From positions 70,997-134,996 of the forward strand of contig JAJYZB010000002.1 of assembly GCA_021800275.1 (NCBI GenBank): DNA of 64,000 bases, given 5' to 3'. Under the pieces are notes generated by a model, which saw nothing but the letters and a program-made list of their open reading frames with translations, was not told the DNA's origin and searched no databases. A program made the translations under genes and the position numbers. Below, piece after piece: positions 23,834-43,123 of the stretch (the stretch's first letter is position 1; each line of letters opens with the position of its first letter). This DNA comes from a bacterium (lineage in GTDB: Bacteria > Vulcanimicrobiota > JABDET01).

Positions 23834-25296
23834 ACCACAGCTCCCTTCTCATCTGGATTTTCCTTCTTTTTCCTGCTGCAGCTGCAGTGGGATGTCTTAT
23901 CCTCAGAAAAGCAAGCTGGATATTTCGTTTTATTATGGTTGGGGCCGCAGTGGATGCAGGGCTTGGTTTTATCCTTATTCAATCACTTTTTCAAAAAGGC
24001 GCCCTGCGCGCAGCAGGTTCATGGCTTCGAGTTGATACTCTTTCAGCTTATTATATTCTCATCATGATTCTCGTATTTTTAATGGCTTCAATTTATGCTG
24101 CCCGATATTTCAATGAGGAGATTCAAAAAGGATCCTTAAGTGACAAAACAGCTGCTCGATTTGGATCCCTCTGGTTTGGAACTTTAAGTGTTATGACCCT
24201 GGTCCTTCTTTCTAACAATCTCGGATTAATGTGGGTTGGAATTGAAGCCACCACGTTAGCCACGACGTTTCTTATCAGTCTGCATCCTTCTCCATTATCT
24301 TTAGAAGCCGCCTGGAAATATGTGCTGATCTGTTCTGTTGGGATTGCTCTTGCCTTCCTTGGAACTCTTTTTGTGGGAGCAGCAGACAGCAGCAGTCTAA
24401 TATGGACCAAACTGGCAAGCCATGCTTCAATCTTAAATCCTCAGTTAATGAAAATGGCTTTTATTTTCCTTCTGATAGGATATGGCACAAAAGTAGGGCT
24501 GGCTCCTCTTCACACCTGGCTGCCGGATGCCCACAGCCAGGCCCCTGCGCCAGTCTCAGCAGTTTTTTCCGGATTCATGGTCAATGAAGCCATGTACTGC
24601 ATTATGCGTTATCTTCCAATTGTTAATGGAGCAGTTGGGAATTCCCATTTTTCAAGGGATCTTCTTTTATTTTTTGGCATCTTTTCAATGGCTGTCGCAG
24701 CAGTCTTTATTCTATTTCAACATGATATTAAAAGACTGCTGGCTTACAGTACAGTGGAACATCTAGGAATTACTGCAATTGGCTTAGGACTTGGAGGACT
24801 CGGGGTTTTTGCAGCGCTTTTTCATACGTTAAACCACTCCATCTGCAAAACAACTGGTTTTTTGTCTGCAGGAAAATTAGGCCAAAAATACGGCACTCAT
24901 GATTTAAGAAAAATGCCAGGAACTCTTCAGAAAGAACAGGTCTGGGGATTGGGTCTATTCTTGAGCCTTATTATCTTAGTCGGATCTGCCCCTTTTGCTG
25001 TGTTCATGAGTGAACTCCTGATCATCAAAGCAGCTGTGGATCATCACCACTTTCTGCTTTTAACATTTTTTCTAACAGCTCTGGGAATTGTTTTTATAGG
25101 AGTTCTTTCTCACGCAGTTTCAGCAGTTTGGGGAGAACCCCCAGGTGATCATGTTCTTCCTGAACCCAATCACCTGGGAGATATGCTGCTGGTTGGAGCC
25201 CCACTTCTTTTACTTTTAATATTAGGAATCTGGATGCCTCATCCACTTCGAGAGCTTTTAGAAAAATCAACTTTTATTTTAACAGGAAAACAATGA
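23830..25296 (+). CDS. HyfF / NuoN / NuoM-like antiporter-type membrane subunit
   Basis: 'LAPLHTWLPDAHSQAPAPVSAVFSG' signature; ATGA overlap with the upstream gene. Confidence 0.8.
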   Translation: MNHSSLLIWIFLLFPAAAAVGCLILRKASWIFRFIMVGAAVDAGLGFILIQSLFQKGALRAAGSWLRVDTLSAYYILIMILVFLMASIYAARYFNEEIQKGSLSDKTAARFGSLWFGTLSVMTLVLLSNNLGLMWVGIEATTLATTFLISLHPSPLSLEAAWKYVLICSVGIALAFLGTLFVGAADSSSLIWTKLASHASILNPQLMKMAFIFLLIGYGTKVGLAPLHTWLPDAHSQAPAPVSAVFSGFMVNEAMYCIMRYLPIVNGAVGNSHFSRDLLLFFGIFSMAVAAVFILFQHDIKRLLAYSTVEHLGITAIGLGLGGLGVFAALFHTLNHSICKTTGFLSAGKLGQKYGTHDLRKMPGTLQKEQVWGLGLFLSLIILVGSAPFAVFMSELLIIKAAVDHHHFLLLTFFLTALGIVFIGVLSHAVSAVWGEPPGDHVLPEPNHLGDMLLVGAPLLLLLILGIWMPHPLRELLEKSTFILTGKQ

Positions 25297-26798
25297 ACGT
25301 AAACTCTTCTTCACCCTCTGTGTTCTGGATCCGAAATGGAGACTCCATCCCATTATCCCGGGTTCCTTTCTACACTCCTGAAGATTTCCGCAGAATCTGC
25401 CTTGAACAGGTTTATTCAGGGGGAAGGCTTGCTCTGCTTTCATCAGTTCCCGCTCTCTACGGCAGAAAAGGAGGGAAGACCCTCCTGGCTCTTGCAGCTG
25501 ATGATGAGAATGGAAAAATTGGAGTTCTGTGCGCTGATTTAGAAGAGAAAAACTCTTATTTAAGCCTTTCTTCAGAAATTCCGCAGGCTCAGGGATTTGA
25601 GAGAGAAATCTTTGAAGAACAAGGGATTCTTCCAAAAAATCACCCCTGGCTTAAGCCCTTAAGAAAACAAGAAACTCCTTATCCGTTTTTTAAAGTAAAA
25701 GGGGAGGGAATACATGAAGTGGCTGTTGGTCCTGTTCATGCAGGAATTATTGAACCAGGGCATTTTCGATTTCAATGTTCAGGAGAAACTGTTCACCATT
25801 TAGAAATCCAGTTAGGGTATCAGCACAGAGGAGCTGAAGAGCTTTTTCTTCGATCCTCACCTGAACGAAGATTGGTCATCTCAGAATCTTTTGCTGGTGA
25901 TACGGTTATTGGACATGCTCTGGCTTACTGCATGGAAATTGAAGCCCTTTCTAAGTCAGAACCCCCACTTTATGCCCATATTCTTCGAGGGGCAGCCCTT
26001 GAATTAGAACGAATTTCGAATCATATAGGGGATCTAGGGGCTCTGTGCGGTGATATTGGGTATCTTCCTGGAGCTGCCTGGTTCGGGAGAATCAGAGGGG
26101 AATTTTTAAACTGGCTAATGGAACTATCCGGGAACCGATTTGGAAGAGGACTTCTGAAGCCAGGAGGGGTGAGGTTTAATTTGAGCGCTCAACAAACAGA
26201 AAATTTCTTAATCCGCTTAGATAAAGCAGAAAGAGATCTAAAAGAAACAGCTGAACTGACCTTCAATCATCCTGCAGTTTGTTCAAGATTTGAAGAAACA
26301 GGGATCGTTTCGCGCGCTGCTGCAGAGGCTTTAGGAATGGTAGGACCAGCAGCCCGCTCCAGCGGCTGTGAAAGAGATGTCAGAAGGGATCACCCCTTTG
26401 GGATTTTTCGATTTTATCATATTCCAACAGCTGCAGCAGATACAGGAGACGTCATGGCTCGCGCTGTGCTGAGGTGGCTCGAAACAGAACGTTCTATTCA
26501 ATTTATCCGGGAGCAGCTGACAGGACTCCTTGAACAATCGCTGGAAGTTGAACTGCAGACAGAAATTCAAAAAATGTCTCCAGAACACCTTGCTGTTTCA
26601 ATGGTAGAAAGCTGGAGAGGAGAAATTCTGCATTTGGCTGTCACCACTTCAAAAGGGGAAATAACAGGATATAAAATTGTGGATCCTTCTTTCCACAATT
26701 GGTTTGGACTGGCTCTTGCTTTACGCGGAGGCCAGATCTCTGATTTTCCTTTGTGCAATAAAAGTTTTAACCTTTCGTACTCTGGACATGATTTATAA
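25293..26798 (+). CDS. Fused NuoC-NuoD-like 'large subunit' (HycE/HyfG-like) lacking both NiFe-binding cysteine motifs
   Basis: NuoC-like 'FEREIFEEQGILPKNHPWLKPLR'; NuoD-like 'GPVHAGIIEPGHFRF...LGYQHRGAEE'; L1 position reads 'ERRLVISESFAGDTVIGH' (no CxxC); C-terminus reads 'DPSFHNW' instead of DPCxxC. Confidence 0.75.
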   Translation: MNVNSSSPSVFWIRNGDSIPLSRVPFYTPEDFRRICLEQVYSGGRLALLSSVPALYGRKGGKTLLALAADDENGKIGVLCADLEEKNSYLSLSSEIPQAQGFEREIFEEQGILPKNHPWLKPLRKQETPYPFFKVKGEGIHEVAVGPVHAGIIEPGHFRFQCSGETVHHLEIQLGYQHRGAEELFLRSSPERRLVISESFAGDTVIGHALAYCMEIEALSKSEPPLYAHILRGAALELERISNHIGDLGALCGDIGYLPGAAWFGRIRGEFLNWLMELSGNRFGRGLLKPGGVRFNLSAQQTENFLIRLDKAERDLKETAELTFNHPAVCSRFEETGIVSRAAAEALGMVGPAARSSGCERDVRRDHPFGIFRFYHIPTAAADTGDVMARAVLRWLETERSIQFIREQLTGLLEQSLEVELQTEIQKMSPEHLAVSMVESWRGEILHLAVTTSKGEITGYKIVDPSFHNWFGLALALRGGQISDFPLCNKSFNLSYSGHDL

Positions 26799-26821
26799 AT
26801 ATTGATCATGGAGAAAAACCA

Positions 26822-27607
26822 ATGTTTAAACTTTTAAAAGCAAGACTGCACCAGGGATATCAAACTTCCCGATTTCCTGAAGCAGAGATAAAACTCCCTG
26901 AGCGATTTAGGGGAAAACCTGTCCTTGATCCTGCCCCTTGTCAAGAGAACTGCTCAGCCTGTGCAGCAGTTTGTCCTACACAGGCGATAACTCTTGATCC
27001 TTTTCAAATCGATCTCGGAGCCTGTTTGTTCTGCCCTCTCTGCCAGGAAGTATGTCCCGAGAAAAAAATTCATTATACCCCTGATTATCATTTAGCCGTC
27101 AATTCCAAAAAGGACTTAAAAATTTCAGAAAAAGAAGCAAAATTAGCAGAGGCGCTGAAGACTGAAATGCTGAAAGTGTTGGGACGATCCTTAAAACTCC
27201 GTCAGGTTTCTGCAGGGGGATGCAGTGGATGTGAAGCAGAGCTGACAGCCTTAGGAAATGTCGTGTTTGATTTGAGCCGCTTCGGCATACAATTTACAGC
27301 ATCCCCTCGTCATGCTGATGGAATTGCTGTAACAGGGCCTGTTTCAAAAAATATGGAAGCAGCGCTGCGAGAAACCTATGCAGCAGTCCCCTCTCCTAAA
27401 ATAGTGATTGCTGTAGGAGCCTGCGCCATCAGCGGCGGCCCTTTTGCAGGAGCCAAAGCAGCTCTCCTAGGAATTCCTGAAGATATCCCTGTGGATCTGT
27501 ATATCCCAGGCTGCCCTCCACATCCCTTAACCATTCTGGATGGCCTGCTGCGATTATTGAACCGAATCAAAGGATCTCCTTCCCCATTCCAAAAATCAGG
27601 TGTTTAA
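26822..27607 (+). CDS. Fusion of a 2x[4Fe-4S] ferredoxin domain (HyfH/NuoI-like) with a NuoB/HycG-like small subunit
   Basis: 'CQENCSACAAVCP' and 'CLFCPLCQEVCP' clusters; then 'GGCSGCEAE', 'GACAISGGPF', 'PGCPPHP' small-subunit cysteines; GGAGA RBS. Confidence 0.75.
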   Translation: MFKLLKARLHQGYQTSRFPEAEIKLPERFRGKPVLDPAPCQENCSACAAVCPTQAITLDPFQIDLGACLFCPLCQEVCPEKKIHYTPDYHLAVNSKKDLKISEKEAKLAEALKTEMLKVLGRSLKLRQVSAGGCSGCEAELTALGNVVFDLSRFGIQFTASPRHADGIAVTGPVSKNMEAALRETYAAVPSPKIVIAVGACAISGGPFAGAKAALLGIPEDIPVDLYIPGCPPHPLTILDGLLRLLNRIKGSPSPFQKSGV

Positions 27608-27708: not shown

Positions 27709-28131
27709 GTGAAAATGCAACCAAAGAAAAAAGTAAAAAAGGGTCCTCTTTTGTTAAAAGCCGTCAAAAAGAGACCAGGGCAAAAGTCAGATCCTGAGAG
27801 TTCTGCCTCAAATTTTACAAAGAACGATTTATTTGGGATAAAAGACTGCCTCGGAATCTCTGATAAAGAACTAGCTCAAATCCTTTTAATTGAGCCTGAA
27901 GTCTTAACAGAACCTGATTTTAAAAACATTCCTATTTCCAGAATCGCTGATCTGCAGAAGGTCGTCAGCAGGGCTGTCGAAATCTTTACTTTAAAAGGAA
28001 TGAGTGAGTGGTTTCATCAACCCCATCCTGAACTCGAGGATCAGTCCCCTCTGGAAGTTTTGAGAGCGCCAGAAGGGGATCAAAAAATTCTGCAGCTTCT
28101 TGCAGCAATTGAATGGGGGGTACCTGTATGA
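27709..28131 (+). CDS. Xre-like antitoxin with DUF2384 (MbcA/ParS-type) toxin-binding domain
   Basis: C-terminal 'WFHQPHPELEDQSPLEVLRAPEGDQKILQLLAAIEWGV' matches the DUF2384 signature; stop overlaps the downstream RES gene start. Confidence 0.65.
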   Translation: MKMQPKKKVKKGPLLLKAVKKRPGQKSDPESSASNFTKNDLFGIKDCLGISDKELAQILLIEPEVLTEPDFKNIPISRIADLQKVVSRAVEIFTLKGMSEWFHQPHPELEDQSPLEVLRAPEGDQKILQLLAAIEWGVPV

Positions 28132-28703
28132 ATATTTTAATGCAGGAAGGAACATTTTACCGAATTGTCATAGGCTGCCGCAGAAAAGAGATTCATAAGC
28201 CTGCCGAGAACTTAATTTTCGGAGGACGATTTACCCCCCCAGAACTTTCCAATACTCTTTATTTAAGCTCTTCTGTTCAAGGATGTCTGGAAGAAATTCG
28301 ATTTAGAATCGGAGGGGATCTAAGAAAAGTTAAACCTCTTGTTTTAGGAACTTTTCAGACGCGATTTTCAAAAATATTAGATTTAACAGATGAAGCTGTT
28401 GTTAAAGTTTTTTTAGGAGATAATCACAGTAAAATTTTTTCCTCAAACTCTGCAAATTACGAGACAACACACCGTCTTGCAGCAGCAGCTGTAAAACGCG
28501 GTTTTGAAGGAATTTTGTATCATTCTGCTGTTTCTCCAGAACATAAAAATCTGGCTGTTTTTTTAGACAATCTGGGTCCAAATTCGTTTATTAAGAAGAT
28601 TTCTATAGATAAAGTGAATATCGGGTGTCAGCCTTTGTCTGGCCGCAGCGCCTGCAGCAGATCTTCAGAATCGGTCTGGCAGAAGGTTTATCAGGTTATT
28701 TAA
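28128..28703 (+). CDS. RES-domain toxin (MbcT/ParT-like NAD+-targeting family)
   Basis: 'GGRFTPPELSNTLYLSSSVQGCLEEI' and 'GILYHSAVSP' carry the R, E and S positions; ATG at 28128 overlaps the antitoxin stop (ATGA). Confidence 0.7.
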   Translation: MNILMQEGTFYRIVIGCRRKEIHKPAENLIFGGRFTPPELSNTLYLSSSVQGCLEEIRFRIGGDLRKVKPLVLGTFQTRFSKILDLTDEAVVKVFLGDNHSKIFSSNSANYETTHRLAAAAVKRGFEGILYHSAVSPEHKNLAVFLDNLGPNSFIKKISIDKVNIGCQPLSGRSACSRSSESVWQKVYQVI

Positions 28704-29488: not shown

Positions 29489-29644
29489 GATAATTCAAAA
29501 AATCCACCTTTTCTGATTTTTCAGCGCCCTACTTTTCTCAATCAATTTCCAGAATAAATAGAAAGCAACATGGGAATTGAAATTTTAGATGCCTCAAAAC
29601 ATTTAGAACTTAACCGATCCGCTCCAAAGGTGAAACTGGAAAAT

Positions 29645-29995
29645 TTAAAATCGGCTTGAAGTTGTAATTTTTTTTATAATTTCAAACCTATTTTTGACAG
29701 GGGTATGCTGCGATAAAAAGGAGATGAAATCTGATGGCGATTCTGCATCAAAAACGGAAATAAACTTATGAGGATTATCGCAAACTCCCTTTCTGAACGC
29801 AAAAGCTGATACTTCACTTCTGCTTTCGTCGTTTTCTAATCTCTGACATAATCTCTTTTGCTGTGCCAGAACTGAGACGGCCTGCTTTAATATCTCCACT
29901 GGCTTTTCGTTCTCCTTCCTGCCAGGCTGGAGACCCGACAGGATCATTTCTAGAGCCATTGGTGGAATTTCTATCCACGGCAGAAATATGCCCAC
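29645..29995 (-). CDS. Hypothetical ORF of doubtful validity
   Basis: 116 aa ORF with no recognisable domain; an overlapping alternative frame also encodes a long open stretch. Confidence 0.2.
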   Translation of the reverse strand: MGIFLPWIEIPPMALEMILSGLQPGRKENEKPVEILKQAVSVLAQQKRLCQRLENDESRSEVSAFAFRKGVCDNPHKFISVFDAESPSDFISFLSQHTPVKNRFEIIKKITTSSRF

Positions 29996-30046
29996 CTTTT
30001 AGGTGCTTAACTTTGCCGCCAAAATCTCGTGGAACTGATAATATTT

Positions 30047-30445
30047 TTAAGTTTGCTCAAATCGCCAGAAGTCGCTCGGTTTAATCACAGGAATTCCATC
30101 AAAATTCTTAAGAGCCAGTAAATCGCTGTCGCCACTGATAAGACAGTCAGAGCCTCCATTCCGCCCTGCAGCTAGAATCCCATTATCATCCGGATCTCGG
30201 CAAATAGAAGGGATAGGTAATTTAACATCCACTAGGCAGGCATTTTCTCTAATAAATTCCAAAAACAGACCTACATTATCTTTTGAAAAGTGAAGTTTAT
30301 TCATTAATTTGTCTAAAATCTCATGCAGAATCTGCTGGGATGTCAAAAGAGAATGATTTAACAGGCAGTGGTCCAGAAGTTCGCTGCACGCGCCTGGAGA
30401 AACAAATGCAGCAATCCAGATATTAGTGTCAAAGAAAACTTTCAC
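30047..30445 (-). CDS. PIN-domain ribonuclease toxin (VapC-like)
   Basis: 'KVFFDTNIWIAAF', 'RDPDDNGILAAG', 'DCLISGDSDLL' PIN acidic motifs; GTG start overlapping the upstream reading frame. Confidence 0.75.
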   Translation of the reverse strand: MKVFFDTNIWIAAFVSPGACSELLDHCLLNHSLLTSQQILHEILDKLMNKLHFSKDNVGLFLEFIRENACLVDVKLPIPSICRDPDDNGILAAGRNGGSDCLISGDSDLLALKNFDGIPVIKPSDFWRFEQT

Positions 30446-30513
30446 GAAATAATACGAAAAACATCTTCTTCTGAAAAGATACCTTTACTTCTAGCCTCCA
30501 GCATCAGACGCTG

Positions 30514-30659
30514 CTAAATTTCTTTAAATTCACGACGGGCTAAATAAATGCGCACAGCTTCCCGAACAATGTCGCTGCGATTGACTTTTTCTTGTTTTGA
30601 CACTTGATCCAGCTTTTTTTGATCTCTTTAGGAAGAGAAATAGTAACCGAATCTCTCAT
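30514..30659 (-). pseudogene. Ribbon-helix-helix (CopG-like) antitoxin gene disrupted by a frameshift in an A7 homopolymer
   Basis: GGAGGA RBS then ATG at 30659; 'MRDSVTISLPKEIKK' continues as 'KLDQVSKQEKVNRSDIVREAVRIYLARREFKEI' only if one A is added to the run (plus-strand T7 at 30614-30620); the span is 146 nt, not a multiple of 3. Confidence 0.55.
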
Positions 30660-30752
30660 TCATGTCCTCCTGTATTAAATTGTAACACATCTCTGTGGTT
30701 CAGTCAATGGAAACTTCTCTATGAAGATAAGGGGTTTGCAAGAAGTACCTTT

Positions 30753-32075
30753 TTACTTCCTCAAATCAAGAATTCTCCTGAGCTTCCCTGTTCTGGGATT
30801 GACCCCCATTTTATCCAAAGTGGTCCATTCGACCTCCATCGGATGAATTAAATTTCGTTCCACAGCAATTAAATACGCAGAACGTTCCTGATTGAAACAA
30901 TTCAAAATTTTCTCCCAGGCATTTTTCAACTTTTCCAATCTCTTTTCCTGAACTTGCAGTGATCTGTCCTCCTCAGGCTGAATCGCAATTCTCACCACAA
31001 GACCATCTTTCCTGTCCTTATGGTAAATCATGAATTGAAACCCTGAAATTTGAACCCCTGGATCGGCTTGTTCCATCACAGATCTCATATCTTCATAATA
31101 AACAGAAAGAGGACCAACTCTAGCGGCATCTTCAGCTCTCCCTAAAAGTCGAAATTTTCGGTCCTGATTCTCCCCATGATAAACTTCTTTCCACTCTGCT
31201 CTATCTCCAACAGGATAGCGAATAATTGGCATCAGGCGCCTCATTAAGCTCGTAGCCACCAGTTTTCCGGGCTGGTTTATCTCGTGAATCGGCTCACCTG
31301 TATCTTCATCCAGAATTTCAAGAATAACCACTTTTGAAAAACTTTTGTGCTCATCCAGTTCACAGTCTGCATCCGCATACCCCAGCAGCCCTGCATCCAC
31401 ACTGGCGTATCCAACAGAAGAAATTTTCACCCCAGGAAAAACAGACTGGAGCTGTTCCCTTTGATCCTGGTAAACAGACTCTCCTCCATACAGCAGCTTC
31501 TGGATCCGAATCTCTGGATACACAGAACGATTTTCAGAATAATAAGCTGCTGCACTGAGAAGAGTGGTTGGAGGACCCACCAGAACATTGAGTTTAAAAT
31601 CCTGAATCGTTTTTAAAATAACCTCGATTGGAGTTCCCCCTCCAATCGGAAACTGCAGCACAGGAACAGGTCCTTCTTCTAAAGATCTCATGATAAAAAT
31701 AAATGAACCATACAAATCTCCAACATAAAAAAGATTTCCTACTCTATCCCCTTCTAAAATTCCAGTCCTGCTCATCCCTTCTCCAAAAAGCCGAACCATA
31801 CATGACCATTCTTCACGACTGAAAACAGAAAACTTCGGGTTCCCTGTGGTTCCTCCGCTTTTAAACACAATCCCATCAGGTGCTGCGGAAGTCAGAACAC
31901 GATTATCATGAATCGTGTTAGCTTTCCAAAAATCATCTTGATTGATGATTGGGAGATTCGAAAGTTTTTCAAATGAAAAAATCCCTTGATAAAGCTTCTT
32001 ATAATACGAAGAATGTTTCAGCGCCCACTCCACTATCTCTTGCCAGGTATATTTTTTTATTCCATCCTGTCTCAT
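30753..32075 (-). CDS. Adenylate-forming enzyme of the PaaK/F390-synthetase/CapK family
   Basis: 'FKSGGTTGNPKF' phosphate-binding loop; N-terminal 'YKKLYQGIFSFEKLSNLPIINQDDF' PaaK-like; 440 aa. Confidence 0.65.
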   Translation of the reverse strand: MRQDGIKKYTWQEIVEWALKHSSYYKKLYQGIFSFEKLSNLPIINQDDFWKANTIHDNRVLTSAAPDGIVFKSGGTTGNPKFSVFSREEWSCMVRLFGEGMSRTGILEGDRVGNLFYVGDLYGSFIFIMRSLEEGPVPVLQFPIGGGTPIEVILKTIQDFKLNVLVGPPTTLLSAAAYYSENRSVYPEIRIQKLLYGGESVYQDQREQLQSVFPGVKISSVGYASVDAGLLGYADADCELDEHKSFSKVVILEILDEDTGEPIHEINQPGKLVATSLMRRLMPIIRYPVGDRAEWKEVYHGENQDRKFRLLGRAEDAARVGPLSVYYEDMRSVMEQADPGVQISGFQFMIYHKDRKDGLVVRIAIQPEEDRSLQVQEKRLEKLKNAWEKILNCFNQERSAYLIAVERNLIHPMEVEWTTLDKMGVNPRTGKLRRILDLRK

Positions 32076-32396
32076 TTCACTCTCGCTTCATTTTCCCCAT
32101 TAATCTCGAACACAGATCTGGATAAACAGCATCTAGTCGTTTTTTGATCGTCTCTTTCATGTTCATCTTTGTTATGTTCTGCCCTTAAAAAAGAAATCTT
32201 GCTCTGCAAAGCTTTTTCTTGAGTGGAATTAGAAGCTGGCATTTCTCAAACTCTGGCAAAAATTTGGCCCTAAAATCCTGCATTCCTAGCAGCGAGGATT
32301 AGACAGGGAGTAGATAATATTCAAATCATTTCCCACAGCGATATATTTTCAATTAACAGGAAAAATAACAGGTGCAAGAAAAATGTAAATGAAATT

Positions 32397-33350
32397 ATGA
32401 AAACCGATAAAAAGCTGTTTGGATTGATTTCAGATCCGGCTGATCCTCATACTCTTTCCATTGCAGAAGAGCTGAGAAAACTAGGGCATGAGTCCCAAAT
32501 CATCGTCTCTTCTGGCGGAGGAAAGTTCTCTTTTTACGAAGGAGAATGGAAATATGAGGGACAGAATCTGGATAAAATAAAAGTTTTCTATTTCCGAAAT
32601 ATGCTGAGTCAAACCCCTGCCGCTAAACAAGAAGGGGGAGAACACAGACTTTACAGGGATTGGTACTACCAGTCCATGCATGCTCGGGAAATTTATGGAG
32701 TCCAGCTTTCCTGGATTCAAGGGCTCCAATCTGCCGGCAAAATTCTCGTGAATCCTCCAACCCCAATGATTGTTGGAGTGCTGAAGCCTCATCAACTTTA
32801 CCTTTTAAAAAAAGCTGGATTTCCTGTCCCGCCCACAATCATTACCCGTGATCCTGAGGAAGCCAGAACCTTTATCCAAGCTCATGGAAAAGTCATTTAT
32901 AAACCGGTGATGGGAGGGGCTTTTGCAGAGTTAATAGATGAAAAAGCGATGCAGCGCCTGGATGCCATCCGGAGTCATTATGTGATTTTTCAGGAATATA
33001 TTGAAGGAACCGATATTCGAGTAACCGTGACAGAAGATGAAATTCTGGCTGCTGCTGAACTGGAGAGTCAGGCTGTAGATTTCCGCGCCACACCCGGGTA
33101 TTTGGAAAACAAAGCCGAAGTCAATTCCTGTGAAATTCCGGAGAAAATCTCAAAAATATGTTTTGACGGATTAAAACTTTTAAACCTTCATTACTCTGGA
33201 ATTGATTTAAAAAGAACTCCTGATGGAAAATATGTTTTTTTAGAATTTAATCTTCATCCCGCCTTTCTGTGGATTGAGCAGAAACTCAATAAACCGATTT
33301 CTCACGGGATAGCCGATCTCCTAATAAAAATAGCGCGTGAGGCAGACTGA
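32397..33350 (+). CDS. ATP-grasp-fold ligase (RimK-like)
   Basis: 'VIYKPVMGGAF', 'VIFQEYIEGTDIRVTV', 'VFLEFNLHPAF' ATP-grasp motifs; 317 aa. Confidence 0.65.
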   Translation: MKTDKKLFGLISDPADPHTLSIAEELRKLGHESQIIVSSGGGKFSFYEGEWKYEGQNLDKIKVFYFRNMLSQTPAAKQEGGEHRLYRDWYYQSMHAREIYGVQLSWIQGLQSAGKILVNPPTPMIVGVLKPHQLYLLKKAGFPVPPTIITRDPEEARTFIQAHGKVIYKPVMGGAFAELIDEKAMQRLDAIRSHYVIFQEYIEGTDIRVTVTEDEILAAAELESQAVDFRATPGYLENKAEVNSCEIPEKISKICFDGLKLLNLHYSGIDLKRTPDGKYVFLEFNLHPAFLWIEQKLNKPISHGIADLLIKIAREAD

Positions 33351-33418
33351 CTTTAAGGAGCCAATCTAACTCACACGCAAGGGGTGTGTTATGGGTGAGT
33401 TTCAATTATAAGTGATGA

Positions 33419-34054
33419 TTAGCCATCATCTGTGCCGCCGCCAGGCAGACCAGCGCTCATCATCATCGTGTGCAGACCTCCTGGCTGTGATTGACCAGGC
33501 AGTGGATAATTGATAAAACCAGGGGGCTGCGGGTTTTCCCAGAAAGGGGGATTCGAGTAACTGAATTCATTGACCTGATCATAAGGATTCTGACCCCATG
33601 GATCTCCATATCCGCCATATCCGCCGCATCCGCCAGGAGCCTCTCTCTGAAAATCAGTTGTTGTTTCGTTCTGGCGTCCGCCAAATCCGATATTATCCTG
33701 CTGAACCTGCATATTGCCATTCTGATCAAGAGTATAAGAAGTTGTGCTGGGGCCAGTTCCAAAATCGTTCGGAGGGGCAGGAGTCGTTATCTGAACACAT
33801 TGATCCCCATTTTGATTAATCCAAACATTATAATTATTCCCATTCGCAGAATAGGTCGTATGCTGTATTCCATTTTGATCCGTATAAGTATTGGTATCGT
33901 ACTGACCATTAAACGCATTTTGTGTTGCCTGATCAATGATCCCTAAATTCTGGTTGTACTGCTGATCCTGTGAATTAAACGGCATGACCGGCGATACCCA
34001 GGAAGTTGGACTCATCTCCTGCAGCAAATTATTCAAGCCTCCGATTCCACCCAT
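33419..34054 (-). CDS. Q/N/G/T-rich low-complexity protein beginning 'MGGIGG'
   Basis: AAGGAGG 8 nt before the ATG; 211 aa dominated by Q, N, G, T, with a 'GGCGGYGGYGDPWG' segment. Confidence 0.5.
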   Translation of the reverse strand: MGGIGGLNNLLQEMSPTSWVSPVMPFNSQDQQYNQNLGIIDQATQNAFNGQYDTNTYTDQNGIQHTTYSANGNNYNVWINQNGDQCVQITTPAPPNDFGTGPSTTSYTLDQNGNMQVQQDNIGFGGRQNETTTDFQREAPGGCGGYGGYGDPWGQNPYDQVNEFSYSNPPFWENPQPPGFINYPLPGQSQPGGLHTMMMSAGLPGGGTDDG

Positions 34055-34356
34055 TTTTTTACCTCCTTAAAAGAGCTTTGCTGTTTTTTATATCAATTCA
34101 CTAACTCTTTTTTTTGATTTTCTTTAATTATAATCCATTTCAGCCCTTATTTCTTGCATTCTTGTGTAGAAAATGTTAAAATTTTGTTAAAATGAACCTT
34201 GGACTCAATCATCTGTGTTTAGCGCTATTCCCAGCAGAGGTGAAATGAACAGGAGAACGGAGCTGCAAATCCATTTTTGTAAATTTACCATACTTGTTCT
34301 ATAAATTTGCCGTCCTTTAGTAAGGAAAACGAGAAAATAGATAGAAAAATCTCTCT

Positions 34357-36627
34357 ATGGCAAAAATTCTGCTGGTTGAAGATGATGTCCATATTTTGAA
34401 AACTCTAGAGAAGATCCTAAAAGAGCGAGGATTTGAAGTTGTCACTGCTGCCAATGGCTTGGAAGCTATCGAATTAGCGCAGAAAGAAGAACTCTCAATG
34501 GTCATTACCGATGTAAGAATGCCTGGAATGGATGGGATTGAAGCCCTTGGAAAAATAAAAACTTATCAACCTGATGCCAGAAAATTAATTATCACAGGTT
34601 ATGCGGGAGATGATGCTCCAATTAGAGCTATTCATCTTTCTGTGGACGACTATTTAATGAAACCATTTTCCCCCGAAAAGTTTTTGCAAAGTGTTGAAAC
34701 AGCGATTCTGAAATATCAATCTGAAGCGCAAAAAACTGAGGCTGCAATTTTCTCTTCCAGCCTACAGCAAAGTCTTAGAACTCTTGTGCAGGAGATTGAA
34801 ACAAGAATTCCAAATGGAACTGAGCGTTCCCGAAGGATCTCTGAATTGGGAACAAAGCTTGGTCAAATAGCAAAACTTGAAAAAAATCAAACTGAAATCC
34901 TGCTTTTTCTTTTATCTTTCCATGATCTCGGCTATTTATCTTATTCAGATCAAGAACTGGAAAATTTACTTTCCATCAAACATGCCGAATGTCTGGGAAA
35001 AATTTTCAAAGGGATGCCCGGTGGTGAACAAATCGCGCTCCTTTACTTGAATCACCATATGCCTTTTGAAGAATCAGATGAAAATTTTTCTATCCTGCCT
35101 CATCTCCTTTTCCTCAGCGAGTCTTTCGAAAACTTAATCTCTACAGGGCTCAGCTCAAAAGAAGCTCTGCAGACCCTGTTAAAAGATGCGGGAAAACTTT
35201 GGGAGCCTTCTCTCCTCGAGATGCTTGAGGATGCTTTGTTCAATCCTCTGCAGAGATTTTCTGAAAAACCCTCCTCAAAAATTTATGAAATACTCCTGCA
35301 TCTCGGAAAAACTTATACTTCTATCGGAGAAATTGAAACAGGAAAAGCGGCCATCCAAAAACTTTTAGAAAAAGAACACGAGATAGATGATCCAGATTTT
35401 AAGTTCAGGCTTCATCTCGCCTTGGCGCAGAACTTAATTCGAGATCAGAAATTCTTGGAAGGGGAGGAAGAAGCCTGCAGAACCCTTGAAACCGCTCTGA
35501 CTTTAAATCTCAGCCCACTCATGATCTCATCGGTTCTTCTGGAAATTGTTCTAGCAAGACTGTTTCTGGAAAAGACCGATAAACTGGAAGAATTCCTTGA
35601 AAAGGGAAAAAGCCATTTTGAAAAATTCAGCGATAAACGGAATTTAGCTCGAACCGAGCTCTATTTTTCCATTCTTGCCGGGATCCTCAAAAAAAGTGAT
35701 CACGCCAAAAGTCATTTCGAAGTCTGCAGAAAGATTGTGGAAGAAGAAAAACTTGAAGACTTCTGGGAATCCGAATTCTCAGCCTTGAAACTTATGAAAA
35801 CACGCTCGGATTCTGATCAGGTCTTCAATTCGAACATTCCTGAAGAAAAAGGACTTAAAATTTACTCTCTTGGACCCGTTCGGATTTATCGAGATGGAAC
35901 TATGATTTCAGAAGAGGCATGGAAAAGCAAAAAAGGAAAAATTCTCTTAAATTATCTTCTGCTGAACATGGAACGGCCTGTTTCAGAAGATAAATTATGC
36001 GATCTATTCTGGCCTCAAGGGGATCCAGAAAGATCCAGAAAAAATCTCCATCATGTCATCTATCTTTTAAGAAGAATTCTTGAACCAGACTTAAAAGATG
36101 GGGCTGATTCGCAGTATATTCTTTCACAACACAATGCCTATCAATTTAATAAATCATCAACCTACTGGTGGGACGTCCATGAGTTTAAAGAAAATATCCA
36201 GAAAGCCCAGTCTTTCTGCAGTTCGAAACAGCACGAAAAAGGGATTGAAACCATACGAAAATTAGAGAATCTTTATGGAGGGGATCTTCTAGAAGATTAT
36301 CTGGAAGAAACCTGGTGCAATTTTGAGCGAGATAGATTAAAGGAACCATTCTTAAATTTGCTTTTAGCCGCTTCATCCTATTATGAACAAAAACAAGACG
36401 ACGTGATGGCTTTAGAATTTGCCCAAAAAACCCTATCCCTGGAGCCATTCCGTGAAAAAACGGCTCAACTGGTCATCCATCTCTTATATAAAAGCGGGAA
36501 AAGAACAGAAGCAGTCAGAAAATATCAAATTTGGTGTTCCCAATTAGAAAAAGAGTTAAATTTAAAGCCCTCACCTGAATTCGCTGCGCTTTATGAAAAA
36601 ATGGTGATTGGCAGCACCTCTTATTGA
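34357..36627 (+). CDS. Multidomain regulator: REC receiver, degenerate HD-GYP-like domain, OmpR-type winged helix and BTAD (SARP-like) domain
   Basis: REC 'ILLVEDD...MVITDVRMPGMDG'; middle 'LSFHDLGY...NHHMPFEE' (HD-GYP-like without the GYP signature); 'IYSLGPVRIYRDGTMISEEAWKSKKGKILLNYLL' wHTH followed by a helical BTAD-like tail. Confidence 0.6.
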   Translation: MAKILLVEDDVHILKTLEKILKERGFEVVTAANGLEAIELAQKEELSMVITDVRMPGMDGIEALGKIKTYQPDARKLIITGYAGDDAPIRAIHLSVDDYLMKPFSPEKFLQSVETAILKYQSEAQKTEAAIFSSSLQQSLRTLVQEIETRIPNGTERSRRISELGTKLGQIAKLEKNQTEILLFLLSFHDLGYLSYSDQELENLLSIKHAECLGKIFKGMPGGEQIALLYLNHHMPFEESDENFSILPHLLFLSESFENLISTGLSSKEALQTLLKDAGKLWEPSLLEMLEDALFNPLQRFSEKPSSKIYEILLHLGKTYTSIGEIETGKAAIQKLLEKEHEIDDPDFKFRLHLALAQNLIRDQKFLEGEEEACRTLETALTLNLSPLMISSVLLEIVLARLFLEKTDKLEEFLEKGKSHFEKFSDKRNLARTELYFSILAGILKKSDHAKSHFEVCRKIVEEEKLEDFWESEFSALKLMKTRSDSDQVFNSNIPEEKGLKIYSLGPVRIYRDGTMISEEAWKSKKGKILLNYLLLNMERPVSEDKLCDLFWPQGDPERSRKNLHHVIYLLRRILEPDLKDGADSQYILSQHNAYQFNKSSTYWWDVHEFKENIQKAQSFCSSKQHEKGIETIRKLENLYGGDLLEDYLEETWCNFERDRLKEPFLNLLLAASSYYEQKQDDVMALEFAQKTLSLEPFREKTAQLVIHLLYKSGKRTEAVRKYQIWCSQLEKELNLKPSPEFAALYEKMVIGSTSY

Positions 36628-36637
36628 TTGGCATAAA

Positions 36638-38533
36638 TTAAAGCTGATCTAAAGCTCTATCAATCACAGACGCTTTTTCGAGAGAAGGCTTTATATTTTC
36701 TACTGCTGGGATTTTTAAAACAAACTGACTCCCCTCCCCCTTCTTGCTTTTCACCTGAATTTCCCCACCCATTGATTTGATAATTCCAAAACTGACTGAC
36801 AATCCTAACCCTGTCCCTTTTCCGATCTCTTTTGTCGTGAAAAACGGATCAAAAATTTTAGAAAGATTCTCTTCTGAGATTCCGCAGCCATTATCCGAAA
36901 TGCGCAAAATACTTTCTCGAGAATCTCCAAAAATATTGATCTCAATCACACCTGGGTTTTCTTTTTTTTCAAAAATCGCGTCTCTGGCATTTGATATTAA
37001 ATTCGCAAGAACCTGTATTAAATTATCAGGAACTCCATACACAGGCAGGCAGTCTTGAAAATCCGCTTTAACTTGAATATTATCCAGAGTTAACTGCTTA
37101 TCCCATAAATTCAAAGCCGCTGCAGCAGCCTCCTCAAGCTTGAAATTCTTTTTTTCATCAGCAGATTTTCTGGAAAAATTTAAAAGTTTTTGAACGATTC
37201 CCTGACATCTCTGAGAAGCTTGAAGAATGGTTTCAACAGCATCTTTATCCTCAGGTTTCTGCTGCAGCTGCCAGGCATTCAACACAATGGCTCCAAGGGG
37301 ATTATTAATTTCGTGCGCAACTCCTGCGGCCAGCTGCCCAACAGCAGCCAGTTTACTAGTTTCAATCAGCTGCGCCTGCATTTTTTTTAAATGATCGTTC
37401 GCCTGCAGGACTTCCTGATACAAAAAACTATTATTGACAGATGAAGAAATCTGACCCGCTAAAATCGTCAGAAATTTCTCCTGCTCTTCTCCAATGAAAG
37501 GGCGGCTGAGAAGCAGATATCCCAGGATTTCTCTTTCTGTTCTGAGAGGAATGACAGCTAGGGGAAGAAGGGCTTTAGGAAAAAGATGAGTGGGATGTTT
37601 GATGACACTCGTCAATTCGCCTTTTTCATTTAGAAAATCATTCTCCATCAAAGTCTCGGGCAGAGGGCTTCTCTCAAACTCCCCACAAGAATTTTTTTTA
37701 CAAAAAGAATCTTTCTCTTTTAAATAGATACTCACTCCAGAGGCTTTCAGTTTTTCCATAAGACCCATTAAAATCTCAGGAGCCATCTTCTGAAAATCCA
37801 AAGCCGCGGACAATTTTTTAGAAAGTTCGTAAATAATTTGCAGCTTTTCTTTTTCAACGTAAGATTTAAATCCAAATTTAAAAACAAAAAAAGCCACAAA
37901 AAATGAAACTGGGATAAAAAGAAAAAGGGGAGTTGAAAGGGAATGCTTTGCAATCGGAACAAAAGGCGCTAAAAGATAAAAAGGCAGTTCGAAAGCATAT
38001 CCGGCGCCAATCTCTTTTAATGAGAACTTCTCTTGAAATCTTCCAGCTTGAAAGACAAATGTCGTAAAATCGGTAAGAAGATGAAAAATAACAGCTGCTG
38101 CCAAAGGAAAAAATAAAGCATCTGAAAAGTTAAAAAAGTTTATTTTGCCCCCAATCTGTCCATAAAATAGAGAGGTCAGTCCTGTTGTGAAAGTATATCT
38201 GCTCACATTTGAAAAAATGGTATCAAAATTTATGCGGCCTTTTCTAACGAAGAAAAAAATAAGGAAGCCAAAGAAAACGGGTAGAACAGTTTGATTTCCC
38301 CATAATAAAATATAACAAAAAATCAGCGGATTTTCAAATCCAAAAGTAATGCTTGACCAGGGAAGTCGAACATACGTAAAAAGGGCGAGAACCAGAAATA
38401 CAGCTCCTAAAACAGTCTCTGTCCAATGGCTGAAAGGATGGCGCAAAAAAGCGCGCGCTAAAAATAAAATTGACACAATAGAGATAAGAATCTCAACAGC
38501 TAAGAATTTAAATCTCTTCTTATTAATGCTCAA
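36638..38533 (-). CDS. Membrane sensor histidine kinase (multi-TM N-terminus, HisKA plus HATPase_c)
   Basis: 'AAGVAHEINNPLGAI' H-box; 'ISDNGCGISEENLSKIFDPFFTTK' and 'GTGLGLSVS' ATPase motifs. Confidence 0.8.
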   Translation of the reverse strand: MSINKKRFKFLAVEILISIVSILFLARAFLRHPFSHWTETVLGAVFLVLALFTYVRLPWSSITFGFENPLIFCYILLWGNQTVLPVFFGFLIFFFVRKGRINFDTIFSNVSRYTFTTGLTSLFYGQIGGKINFFNFSDALFFPLAAAVIFHLLTDFTTFVFQAGRFQEKFSLKEIGAGYAFELPFYLLAPFVPIAKHSLSTPLFLFIPVSFFVAFFVFKFGFKSYVEKEKLQIIYELSKKLSAALDFQKMAPEILMGLMEKLKASGVSIYLKEKDSFCKKNSCGEFERSPLPETLMENDFLNEKGELTSVIKHPTHLFPKALLPLAVIPLRTEREILGYLLLSRPFIGEEQEKFLTILAGQISSSVNNSFLYQEVLQANDHLKKMQAQLIETSKLAAVGQLAAGVAHEINNPLGAIVLNAWQLQQKPEDKDAVETILQASQRCQGIVQKLLNFSRKSADEKKNFKLEEAAAAALNLWDKQLTLDNIQVKADFQDCLPVYGVPDNLIQVLANLISNARDAIFEKKENPGVIEINIFGDSRESILRISDNGCGISEENLSKIFDPFFTTKEIGKGTGLGLSVSFGIIKSMGGEIQVKSKKGEGSQFVLKIPAVENIKPSLEKASVIDRALDQL

Positions 38534-38539
38534 TGTGGA

Positions 38540-39082
38540 TTAATGATCCACCCGCGGACCTAAAATTGGACCCACTGCACTACACATATTATCCATTAAA
38601 TTTTCCGGATTTTCCCAATTGAAATCTTCTTCAACTTTTTTTCTTCCCAGATCGTAGCTCCTAATTGTATTGTAAATGGAAGGCTGTGAAGAAAAATTCT
38701 GAGGATCGATCCATGGACCCTGAATTGGACCCTGGCTGTCAAATCCTGATGAAATTCCACCTGTCCCGAAGAAAGAACTCCATGGAGAACCAAGCCCTGA
38801 AAGAAATCCAGGAGAGTATAAAGGCGAAGAATACGGACTGCCGTAAAATGAATTCAACCAGTTTCCTGACCACGGGCTTTCACAAAACTGTTCACAAGGA
38901 GGGCAGCTGCAGAACCCGGAATCAGACCCCAAAGCATTCTCCCAGGAAGACTTAAATTGAAGTTGGGGATACGAGGATGAACAAGGATTAAAAGAAGGAC
39001 TTGCCGGACAGCTGCATGCTACTTCCGATGGAGCAGAAAAATCAAAAAACTGATTTCCCGAAAAAATCTCTCCTATGCTCAT
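38540..39082 (-). CDS. S/P/G/C-rich low-complexity hypothetical protein
   Basis: 180 aa ORF; TTTACA-N16-TATAAT promoter-like sequence and a GGGGG RBS upstream. Confidence 0.4.
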   Translation of the reverse strand: MSIGEIFSGNQFFDFSAPSEVACSCPASPSFNPCSSSYPQLQFKSSWENALGSDSGFCSCPPCEQFCESPWSGNWLNSFYGSPYSSPLYSPGFLSGLGSPWSSFFGTGGISSGFDSQGPIQGPWIDPQNFSSQPSIYNTIRSYDLGRKKVEEDFNWENPENLMDNMCSAVGPILGPRVDH

Positions 39083-43098: not shown

Positions 43099-43123
43099 AT
43101 AGGCTTAAGACCGGAGACCAAAA

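What the first reader, a model, noticed from the sequence alone, without database searches (positions are those of the whole stretch)
30753..34054. Divergent PaaK-like adenylating enzyme and ATP-grasp ligase next to a Q/N/G-rich protein
Two amide-bond-forming enzymes of different mechanism (acyl-adenylate and acyl-phosphate) are transcribed divergently from a 320 bp shared intergenic region. Immediately downstream is a 211 aa low-complexity protein with a strong RBS. This could be a substrate-and-ligase arrangement for peptide tagging, cross-linking or small-molecule conjugation; the region lies near the centre of the window.
Basis: partly seen in the sequence, partly recalled or inferred. Interest (0 to 1): 0.55.

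Follow-up and report, generated by a model that had tools for sequence, protein, structure and literature searches.

The report
Plesiocin-type peptide cyclase with protein-sized substrate
The ATP-grasp gene is a relative of a known peptide-cyclising enzyme (PsnB, which makes the graspetide plesiocin), the odd Q/N/G-rich protein next to it is probably its unusually large substrate, and the PaaK-like enzyme on the other side is an unrelated neighbour put there by a genome rearrangement.

Summary
All three ORFs exist at the stated coordinates. The proposed pairing of the two ligases does not hold. No PaaK-like gene lies near any of 82 other loci of the ATP-grasp family, including the 77-80% identical relatives. 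DNA homology to the nearest relative starts only 53 nt upstream of the ATP-grasp. The closest PaaK-like homologues sit at the end of an MFS / GNAT-like / LuxE / LuxC operon that is absent from the window.

The ATP-grasp is a full-length homologue of PsnB, the group 2 graspetide macrocyclase (PDB 7DRM, E 1.5e-35). It keeps PsnB's core-binding arginines, DFR loop and leader-binding pocket. About 80% of family loci carry an adjacent precursor with 1-18 repeats of TTxAxGEEGG, plus a leader motif such as PFIKYELP or LFIEDL. The window has no such core.

The convergent 211-aa Q/N/G protein has a predicted folded N-terminal domain and a disordered tail. The tail carries the window's only match to the leader motif (GFINYPLP), followed by a C-terminal HTMMMSAGLPGGGTDDG. 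A 59%-identical enzyme has a convergent partner with SFINYSPL and HTMAYGVDDG.

Best reading (confidence about 0.6): a divergent graspetide enzyme-substrate pair. It is a new variant of a known kind and moderately interesting. No modification has been shown.

The parts
32397..33350 (+). PsnB-type (group 2, plesiocin-type) graspetide ATP-grasp macrocyclase, 317 aa
   Evidence: The best solved homologue is PsnB 7DRM, E 1.5e-35, aligned 10-311 to 30-330. R67/R97/R208 correspond to PsnB R72/R101/R213. D228-F229-R230 is the DFR loop. Y168/L188/I191/V196/F198 correspond to the leader pocket. Most family loci carry TTxAxGEEGG precursors.
33419..34054 (-). Q/N/G-rich 211-aa protein, the candidate protein-sized graspetide precursor (convergent with the ATP-grasp)
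   Evidence: It is adjacent to the enzyme in the window, L005, L006 and L100. Only 5 clusters exist among 5.8 billion proteins. It ranks first of 1090 window segments with two HMMs built only from canonical precursors.
33551..33997 (-). Predicted folded N-terminal domain of the Q/N/G protein (about aa 20-168): one helix and eight strands
   Evidence: AlphaFold2 block-mean pLDDT is mostly 62-90 over residues 21-140, with residues 140-153 below 50. There is no significant PDB fold match. Remote homologues P0215 and P0217 have the domain without the tail, and P0216 matched in three stretches.
33497..33517 (-). Leader-recognition-like motif F180-I-N-Y-P-L-P186 in the disordered tail
   Evidence: It matches the Myxococcota precursor leader motif (P/S)F(I/V)x(Y/F)x(L/T)P, for example L010 PFINYELP and L030 SFINYQLP. 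It is the only match in six frames of the 64-kb window, against 0.76 expected. It is invariant in 5 of 6 family members.
33422..33472 (-). Candidate core peptide H195-TMMMSAGLPGGGTDD-G211 at the extreme C-terminus
   Evidence: (T/S)(M/Q)MMS and (L/M)PGGGTDDG are invariant in 5 of 6 homologues, while the linkers between them vary. The partner of a 59%-identical enzyme has HTMAYGVDDG. The canonical core is TTMAVGEEGG.
30753..32075 (-). PaaK-like adenylate-forming enzyme, 440 aa. It is an adjacent gene but not part of the system.
   Evidence: It is absent next to the ATP-grasp in all 82 other loci. Homologues at 69% and 53% identity are the last gene of an MFS / GNAT-like / LuxE / LuxC-fusion operon, and none of those genes is in the window. 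The best PDB match is 4R1L at E 2e-16.
32072..32242 (-). 56-aa called ORF overlapping the PaaK-like start by 4 nt; unsupported
   Evidence: It is called. It is found only in identical copies of this contig. It is not a remnant of the LuxC fusion and has no Pfam hit.
32344..32396 (.). Left edge of the block that is syntenic with the nearest relatives (the breakpoint lies just upstream of the ATP-grasp)
   Evidence: The blastn alignment of the window to L006 and L005 begins at 32344-32350. There is no homology to the left of that point.
34357..36627 (+). Response regulator with wHTH and BTAD (SARP-like) domains, divergent from the Q/N/G gene; a conserved neighbour and possible regulator (inference)
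   Evidence: Pfam finds Response_reg, Trans_reg_C and BTAD. It is syntenic in L006 and L100.
36638..38533 (-). Membrane histidine kinase; a conserved neighbour and possible partner of the regulator (inference)
   Evidence: HisKA and HATPase_c domains are recorded. The L006 counterpart is 72% identical in protein.

Best explanation
The conserved unit is the ATP-grasp gene (32397-33350) together with the convergent Q/N/G-rich gene (33419-34054).

The ATP-grasp is a PsnB-type graspetide macrocyclase. By analogy with PsnB, its helical leader-binding pocket would dock the Phe of the motif G-F180-I-N-Y-P-L-P in the substrate's disordered tail. It would then use ATP to phosphorylate the side-chain carboxylate of Asp209 and/or Asp210 in the C-terminal G-T-D-D-G. 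A hydroxyl from Thr196 and/or Ser200 in H-T-M-M-M-S would attack the acyl-phosphate, closing one or two side-chain macrolactone rings across a P-G-G-G turn.

The substrate is unusual in two ways. The leader motif is preceded by a folded domain of about 150 aa. The core differs from the family's canonical TTxAxGEEGG, with Asp in place of Glu, wider spacing, and one Thr plus one Ser. A second copy with an intact tail (P0212) lies elsewhere, probably in the same genome, and would be a second substrate.

The PaaK-like enzyme is an unrelated gene, detached from its usual LuxE/LuxC operon and brought alongside by a rearrangement.

Shown: the homology, the residue conservation, the motif occurrence, the synteny and the breakpoint. 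Inferred: that the Q/N/G protein is the substrate, which residues are linked, and what the product does.
For: Enzyme:
- Full-length match to PsnB 7DRM at E 1.5e-35. Other graspetide maturases (CdnC, MdnC, MdnB) score E 1e-11 to 6e-16, and RimK only 7e-8 over the core.
- The PsnB residues shown experimentally to bind the core (R72, R101, R213), the DFR loop and the leader pocket are all present.

Family function:
- In about 63 of 78 non-window-clade loci, an ORF within 2.5 kb of the enzyme, usually the adjacent gene, carries 1-18 TTxAxGEEGG cores and a leader motif.

Substrate candidate:
- The strict leader motif occurs once in 128,000 six-frame codons of the window, and that match is in the neighbouring gene.
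- HMMs built only from canonical Myxococcota precursors rank the Q/N/G protein first of 1090 segments. E is 0.46-0.64 window-wide, which is about 5e-4 per segment.
- The motifs lie in the disordered tail. They are invariant islands between variable linkers in 5 of 6 homologues.
- A 59%-identical enzyme (P0007) has a convergent downstream partner with SFINYSPL and SHTMAYGVDDG. That partner is otherwise not BLAST-similar to the Q/N/G protein.
- The enzyme / Q/N/G adjacency is kept in L005, L006 and L100.
- PsnB R181 contacts the acidic leader residue D18. The equivalent residue is Glu in the window clade and the 43% clade only, matching the loss of the acidic residue in FINYPLP.
- In an NJ tree the window clade is sister to the Myxococcota clade, whose leaders are of the FIxYxLP type.
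Against: - The motif matches are short and not significant window-wide (E about 0.5).
- The canonical TTxxxxEE core, which PsnB needs for efficient turnover, is absent.
- Adjacency of the Q/N/G gene is seen only in one narrow lineage (enzyme 77-80% identical), where synteny by descent is expected anyway.
- A 59%-identical enzyme in L089 has a different convergent neighbour (RamC_N-like), and L086 and L090 end before the downstream gene.
- One paralogue (P0214) next to the enzyme in L006 has lost both motifs, and one paralogue with intact motifs (P0212) is not next to any ATP-grasp.
- A folded leader domain of about 150 aa is not typical of graspetides.
- No biochemical data exist.
Confidence: 0.6

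Rival explanations
1. The ATP-grasp is a graspetide-type macrocyclase, but the Q/N/G protein is not its substrate. The adjacency would then be synteny inherited within one narrow lineage and the FINYPLP/TDDG resemblance would be chance. The real precursor would be encoded elsewhere, or the enzyme would be an orphan.
For: The motif HMM E-values are about 0.5 window-wide. About 15 of 78 canonical family loci also lack a detectable precursor within 2.5 kb. L089 has a different neighbour. P0212 keeps the motifs although it is unlinked from any ATP-grasp.
Against: The top-scoring segment of 1090 is exactly the adjacent gene. The motifs are invariant islands in a disordered tail. A comparable motif pair occurs independently in the partner of a 59%-identical enzyme. 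The enzyme has a clade-specific change at a leader-contacting residue.
Confidence: 0.28
2. One reading: the PaaK-like adenylating enzyme and the ATP-grasp act together on the Q/N/G protein or on a small molecule, expressed from a shared divergent promoter.
For: The two genes are divergent and 321 bp apart in this genome. AMP-binding proteins are reported to co-occur with group 1 graspetide clusters (PMC13097080).
Against: No PaaK-like gene is present in 0 of 82 other family loci, including the 77-80% identical relatives. The synteny breakpoint lies 53 nt upstream of the ATP-grasp. The PaaK-like family has its own conserved operon with LuxE and LuxC. Both families occur on separate contigs in one MAG.
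Confidence: 0.04
3. The ATP-grasp is a RimK-like C-terminal amino-acid ligase that extends the acidic C-terminus (…TDDG) of the Q/N/G protein, as RimK extends ribosomal protein S6.
For: There is a Pfam RimK hit. The substrate candidate has a conserved acidic C-terminus.
Against: RimK matches are weak and limited to the ATP-grasp core: PDB E 7e-8 over 130-296, and NCBIfam rimK_fam 72 bits against a cut-off of 143. The graspetide-specific R213 equivalent, the DFR loop and the leader pocket are conserved. Family members sit next to TTxAxGEEGG precursors.
Confidence: 0.05

Closest known systems
PsnB / PsnA2 (plesiocin, group 2 graspetide; Plesiocystis pacifica; PDB 7DRM-7DRP)
   Same: The enzyme is homologous over its full length. 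The core-binding Arg triad, the DFR loop and the hydrophobic leader pocket are the same. The candidate substrate has a leader motif centred on a Phe, followed by a hydroxyl…acid-acid motif. A single ATP-grasp is present with no second ligase.
   Different: Identity is only about 30%. The core is HTMMMSxxxPGGGTDDG rather than TTxxxxEE. The leader motif is of the FINYPLP type, not LFIEDL. The leader is preceded by a folded domain of about 150 aa. The core is single and at the extreme C-terminus. The two genes are convergent. PsnB R181 is replaced by Glu.
Myxococcota PsnB-like loci with FIKYELP-leader, TTMAVGEEGG-repeat precursors (for example Archangium, Pyxidicoccus and Hyalangium loci L033-L054)
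   Same: They are the sister clade in the NJ tree. The leader motif is nearly identical (PFINYELP against GFINYPLP). Precursors can be long proteins of 57 to more than 600 aa.
   Different: They have canonical Glu-Glu cores, often 2-18 repeats, with the leader at the N-terminus and the precursor gene divergent upstream of the enzyme.
Microviridin-type maturases MdnB/MdnC/MvdC/MvdD and CdnC
   Same: They are ATP-grasp RiPP macrocyclases with the same chemistry through an acyl-phosphate intermediate.
   Different: They are much more distant (E 1e-11 to 6e-16). The PF21068 pre-ATP-grasp domain is not detected in the window protein, and the leader and core motifs differ.
RimK (ribosomal protein S6 glutamate ligase)
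   Same: It has the ATP-grasp fold and acts on an acidic C-terminal tail of a folded protein.
   Different: It adds residues to the alpha-carboxylate. Similarity is weak and limited to the core, and it lacks the graspetide-specific recognition residues.
PaaK (phenylacetate-CoA ligase) and PaaK-like ligases (4R1L, 2Y27, 6SIW)
   Same: The PaaK-like gene shares the short ANL-type adenylate-forming architecture and the SGGTTGNPK motif.
   Different: It scores far below the PaaK equivalog cut-off (52 against 646 bits). There is no paa operon. It belongs to an uncharacterised clade that is normally the last gene of an MFS / GNAT-like / LuxE / LuxC operon.

Membership tests
Graspetide ATP-grasp macrocyclase, PsnB type (group 2) | Full-length sequence homology to PsnB | tested here: met
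   phmmer against PDB gives 7DRM at E 1.5e-35, query 10-311 aligned to chain 30-330.
Graspetide ATP-grasp macrocyclase, PsnB type (group 2) | Core-binding Arg72, Arg101 and Arg213, and the D(F/W)R loop | tested here: met
   R67, R97, R208 and D228-F229-R230 are present. They are invariant or nearly so in the family. Their roles are taken from bioRxiv 10.1101/2021.03.09.434688.
Graspetide ATP-grasp macrocyclase, PsnB type (group 2) | Hydrophobic leader-binding pocket (Y171/I193/L196/V201/F203) and R192 | tested here: met
   The equivalents are Y168/L188/I191/V196/F198 and R187, read from the alignment. R181 is replaced by E178, which is specific to the window clade and the 43% clade.
Graspetide ATP-grasp macrocyclase, PsnB type (group 2) | NCBIfam curated model for ATP-grasp RiPP maturases (TIGR04187, TIGR04184, TIGR04185) above its cut-off | tested here: not met
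   TIGR04187 is the best match but scores 117 bits against a cut-off of 350, and it covers only residues 115-309.
Group 2 (plesiocin-type) graspetide biosynthetic locus | Adjacent precursor with the TTxxxxEE core | tested here: not met
   There is no T[TS]xxxGE[ED] in any frame of the 64-kb window, nor within 2.5 kb of the enzyme in L005, L006, L100 or L086-L093. A divergent candidate core ending in GTDDG is present instead.
Group 2 (plesiocin-type) graspetide biosynthetic locus | Precursor leader motif with a key Phe (LFIEDL or PFIKYELP type) | tested here: met
   GFINYPLP lies at residues 179-186 of the Q/N/G protein. It is the only strict match in the window and ranks first with the leader HMM.
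Group 2 (plesiocin-type) graspetide biosynthetic locus | Side-chain macrolactone cross-links in the product | not testable with these tools
   This needs co-expression and mass spectrometry or NMR.
RimK family alpha-L-glutamate ligase | Score above the rimK_fam cut-off, or equivalog-level similarity to RimK | tested here: not met
   TIGR00768 scores 72 bits against a cut-off of 143. PRK10446 scores 33 against 331. PDB RimK scores E 7e-8 over the core only.
Phenylacetate-CoA ligase PaaK (bona fide) | Equivalog-level score and a paa operon context | tested here: not met
   TIGR02155 scores 52 bits against a cut-off of 646. The neighbours are a PIN toxin gene and the ATP-grasp, with no paa genes.
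Uncharacterised PaaK-like clade of the MFS / GNAT-like / LuxE / LuxC-fusion operon | Close homology to operon members, and the operon context itself | tested here: inconclusive
   Homology is met: 69% identity to P0091 and 53% to P0095. The operon context is not met within the window, and the rest of the genome could not be searched.

The most novel reading that the evidence does not exclude
The Q/N/G protein and its unlinked paralogue P0212 are not leader-cleaved RiPP precursors. On this reading they are mature folded proteins whose disordered C-terminal tails are stapled into a lactone hairpin by the PsnB-like enzyme. Graspetide chemistry would then be used as a post-translational modification of whole proteins, with an Asp-based, wider-spaced core. 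Expression might be controlled by the conserved adjacent BTAD response regulator and histidine kinase.
Probability: 0.25. Interest if true: 0.6.

Novelty: new variant of a known kind. Interest (0 to 1): 0.4.

Why it matters
If confirmed, the locus would extend group 2 graspetide chemistry in three ways. It would add a new core pattern, with Asp acceptors, a single Thr/Ser donor pair and a longer loop closed over a PGGG turn. It would show that a PsnB-type enzyme can take a substrate whose recognition motif follows a folded domain of about 150 residues, which bears on engineering these cyclases to staple tails on whole proteins. It would also supply a natural enzyme variant with a charge reversal at a leader-contacting residue that tracks a change in the leader, a usable pair for studying specificity. 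For genome annotation, the PaaK-like neighbour should not be read as part of a biosynthetic cluster.

Tried and rejected
- A conserved PaaK-like / ATP-grasp pair was rejected on 82 loci, the synteny breakpoint and the PaaK-like clade's own operon.
- The 56-aa ORF was tested as a precursor and as a remnant of the LuxC fusion. It has no similarity to the fusion, no homologues and no graspetide motif.
- Clustering of neighbouring ORFs of at least 60 aa found no conserved partner across the family. This was misleading, because precursors are short or repetitive. A motif scan then found them.
- Short precursor ORFs were sought in 32076-32396 and the flanks. None had TTxxxGEE or a leader motif.
- A metagenome scan for more window-clade loci found nothing.
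- Foldseek of the Q/N/G model against PDB gave no significant match, only avidin-like beta meanders at E of at least 0.06.
- Rfam found nothing in 29500-35000, and the terminator scan found nothing between the convergent genes.
- HMMs of the canonical leader and core rank the Q/N/G protein first, but their E-values are not significant window-wide.
- The C-terminal extension of the 43%-identical enzymes (TFFDYGVPKPS) looked like a fused leader, but it did not score with the leader HMM.
- A structure of the enzyme-tail complex could not be attempted, because chimeric sequences are not accepted by the predictor.
Full report
**Observation.** The three ORFs are present exactly as described: a 440-aa PaaK-like protein at 30753-32075 (-), a 317-aa ATP-grasp protein at 32397-33350 (+), and a 211-aa protein at 33419-34054 (-). 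The 211-aa protein is rich in G, N, Q, P and T. It has a strong AAGGAGG ribosome-binding site. Two details differ from the description. First, the 211-aa gene is convergent with the ATP-grasp, tail-to-tail with a 68-bp gap, not downstream of it on the same strand. Second, gene callers place a 56-aa ORF (32072-32242, -) in the 'shared' intergenic region. That ORF has no homologues outside identical copies of the contig and no family hit.

**The PaaK-like / ATP-grasp pairing is not conserved.** I collected 80 loci of the ATP-grasp family from species-representative genomes, plus contigs for closer metagenomic homologues. A tblastn search with the PaaK-like protein finds it beside the ATP-grasp only in the window's own contig copies, and in none of 82 other loci. 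This includes the nearest relatives L005, L006 and L100, whose enzymes are 77-80% identical.

DNA homology between the window and L006 or L005 begins at 32344-32350. It then runs through the ATP-grasp, the Q/N/G gene, the BTAD response regulator, the histidine kinase and the epimerase. Nothing to the left is shared. In L006 the left flank is instead OGG, FolD-PilZ, tRNA-Leu and a second Q/N/G paralogue.

That paralogue's apparent counterpart (P0212) lies on a different contig of the same metagenome as the window, and it sits next to tRNA-Leu, FolD, PilZ and OGG. This indicates a rearrangement with a breakpoint just upstream of the ATP-grasp.

The PaaK-like protein belongs to a large family with more than 1500 hits at 45-69% identity. 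In its 69% and 53% identical homologues it is the last gene of an operon: MFS, a 385-aa GNAT-like protein, LuxE, a LuxC::PaaK-like fusion, then the PaaK-like gene. None of those genes is in the window. One Obscuribacteraceae MAG has both families on different contigs (L060, L095). The protein is not bona fide PaaK: TIGR02155 scores 52 bits against a cut-off of 646, and the best PDB match is E 2e-16.

**What the ATP-grasp is.** Its best solved homologue is PsnB, the plesiocin (group 2 graspetide) macrocyclase, at E 1.5e-35 over essentially the full length. Other graspetide maturases follow, and RimK comes far behind.

The PsnB paper (bioRxiv 10.1101/2021.03.09.434688) sets out how the enzyme recognises its substrate:
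- Arg213 recognises the ring-forming Glu.
- Arg101 binds the second Glu.
- Arg72 binds the backbone of the preceding Gly.
- A D(F/W)R loop binds ATP.
- A pocket formed by Y171, I193, L196, V201 and F203, together with R192, holds Phe15 of the leader motif LFIEDL.
- R181 pairs with leader residue Asp18.

The window protein has R208, R97, R67, D228-F229-R230, Y168/L188/I191/V196/F198 and R187 at the corresponding positions. The one change is E178 in place of R181. That charge reversal occurs only in the window clade and its 43%-identical sister.

**What the family does.** The first neighbourhood clustering used ORFs of at least 60 aa and found no conserved partner. Inspection of low-GC members then showed short upstream ORFs ending in TTLALGEEGG-type repeats. 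A motif scan found an ORF with 1-18 repeats of TT[MLKQ]A[VLI]GEEGG within 2.5 kb of the enzyme in about 63 of 78 loci outside the window clade. In most of these loci it is the adjacent gene. These precursors have a leader motif upstream of the core. The motif is LFIE(D/E)L in Firmicutes and plesiocin-like loci, and (P/S)F(I/V)(K/N/Q/R)(Y/F)x(L/T)P in Myxococcota. The family is therefore the PsnB-type graspetide synthetase family.

**The window clade lacks the canonical core.** No T[TS]xxxGE[ED] occurs in any frame of the 64-kb window, nor near the enzyme in L005, L006, L100 or L086-L093.

**The Q/N/G protein as candidate substrate.** The protein belongs to a very small family, with five clusters among 5.8 billion proteins. 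The six available sequences share about 90 invariant positions. AlphaFold2 predicts a helix plus eight strands with good confidence for residues about 21-137 and 161-168, and disorder for 169-211. The fold has no significant PDB match. Remote homologues have the domain without the tail, and one 592-aa homologue matched in three stretches and seems to hold three tandem copies.

The disordered tail reads PPFWENPQPP-GFINYPLP-GQSQPGGL-HTMMMSAGLPGGGTDDG. Several observations bear on it:
- GFINYPLP matches the Myxococcota leader motif, for example L010 PFINYELP and L030 SFINYQLP.
- It is the only match to the strict motif in all six frames of the window, against 0.76 expected.
- Two HMMs built solely from canonical precursors (leader plus core, and leader alone) rank the Q/N/G protein first of 1090 window segments. 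E is 0.46-0.64 window-wide, or about 5e-4 per segment.
- In five of the six homologues, PGFINYP(L/M)P, (T/S)(M/Q)MMS and (L/M)PGGGTDDG are invariant, while the linkers between them vary.
- The enzyme P0007, 59% identical to the window enzyme, has a convergent downstream partner that is not BLAST-similar to the Q/N/G protein. That partner carries SFINYSPL, SHTMAYGVDDG and STD(N/D)G repeats. HTMAYGVDDG can be laid residue for residue on the canonical TTMAVGEEGG.
- An NJ tree, without support values, places the window clade inside the family and sister to the Myxococcota clade that uses FIxYxLP leaders.
- The leader's acidic residue is lost (FIKYELP becomes FINYPLP). This parallels the R-to-E change at the enzyme residue that contacts that part of the leader in PsnB.

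**Mechanism proposed.** This part is inferred. The enzyme docks F180, phosphorylates D209 and/or D210, and T196 and/or S200 close one or two nested macrolactones over the PGGG turn. This is analogous to the T32-E37 and T31-E38 rings of plesiocin. P0212, which has an intact tail, would be a second substrate. The conserved BTAD response regulator and histidine kinase next door may regulate the system, but this rests on synteny alone.

**Weaknesses.**
- The motifs are short and the E-values are not significant window-wide.
- The Q/N/G adjacency is confined to one narrow lineage.
- L089, with a 59% identical enzyme, has a different downstream neighbour.
- One paralogue beside the enzyme in L006 has lost the motifs.
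- PsnB itself works poorly on non-native cores.
- A metagenome scan for more examples found nothing.
- No modification has been shown.

**Verdict.** The finding as written, two cooperating ligases plus a substrate, is not supported with respect to the PaaK-like enzyme. Its second half is supported: the ATP-grasp is a graspetide-type cross-linking ligase and the neighbouring odd protein is probably its substrate. The system belongs to a known kind, the group 2 graspetides. It departs from that kind in the core motif, in having a large folded domain ahead of the leader motif, and in gene orientation. I rate it a new variant of a known kind, with interest 0.4.

Noticed in passing
L087 734-1861 (P0010), also P0008 and P0009: The 43%-identical sister enzymes carry a C-terminal extension of 30-60 aa containing TFFDYGVPKPS, TFFHYGLPKPS or PFFRFAAPEPS. 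This loosely resembles the precursor leader motif PF(I/V)KYELPK and might be a natural leader-enzyme fusion. It did not score with the leader HMM.
   Followed up: partly
L087 1-435 (+): The ORF upstream of the 43%-clade enzyme on the same strand has a CxxCH motif and ends in …PPGGGGGDDDDGDDDDGGKGDDD. This Gly/Asp-rich C-terminus is reminiscent of PGGGTDDG.
   Followed up: no
L086 866-1915 (-); L089 1-498 (-): In the 59-63% identical relatives, the gene that diverges 36-38 nt upstream of the ATP-grasp encodes a 349-aa protein. Its motifs look kinase- or aminoglycoside-phosphotransferase-like to the eye (…IIGDFAPQNILM…FLIDLEF…). It has no Pfam hit.
   Followed up: partly
L094 1901-9404; L095 1886-9275: There is a conserved five-gene operon of unknown function: MFS transporter, a 385-aa GNAT-like protein, LuxE, a LuxC::PaaK-like fusion of about 845 aa, and the PaaK-like gene. 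It occurs in the closest homologues of the window's PaaK-like gene. The fusion's C-terminal half is a 31% identical paralogue of the PaaK-like protein.
   Followed up: partly
L097 8001-8642; L099 1564-2205 (same metagenome as the window): A second Q/N/G paralogue (P0212, 213 aa) with an intact FINYPLP…PGGGTDDG tail lies between HMG-CoA reductase and tRNA-Leu/FolD/PilZ. About 110 nt downstream of it is similar to window 33316-33419, which covers the last 35 nt of the ATP-grasp gene. This suggests an old duplication of the ATP-grasp 3' end together with the Q/N/G gene.
   Followed up: partly
L006 9199-9852 (-): In the nearest relative, two Q/N/G paralogues flank the ATP-grasp. The upstream one (P0214, 217 aa) has lost both the FINY motif and the TDDG end.
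   Followed up: yes
window 38540-39082 (-): Another lineage-specific low-complexity protein (180 aa, rich in S, P, G and F, several Cys) sits beside the histidine kinase. Its L006 counterpart is 34% identical. It has no family hit and no graspetide-like motif.
   Followed up: partly
window 27709-28703 and 30047-30445: Toxin-antitoxin genes lie just left of the PaaK-like gene: a Xre/MbcA-type antitoxin with a RES toxin, and a PIN_3 toxin. This is consistent with a variable, rearrangement-prone stretch.
   Followed up: no
window 41728-46429 (+): There are three tandem paralogous HD_5 (HD-GYP-like) proteins of 453-469 aa.
   Followed up: no
window about 20050-27607 (+): A complex I-like or group 4 [NiFe]-hydrogenase-like cluster is present, with NADHdh, Proton_antipo_M, Complex1_49kDa and Oxidored_q6/Fer4 genes.
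   Followed up: no
L013, L033, L025, L028 (Myxococcota): Canonical family precursors can be very long and repetitive. A single ORF of up to several hundred residues can hold 12-18 TTxAxGEEGG cores.
   Followed up: partly
L061 10966-12060 (+): In Aeribacillus, a membrane protein with weak Peptidase_M50 / zincin similarity follows the precursor and the ATP-grasp. It is a candidate leader protease.
   Followed up: no
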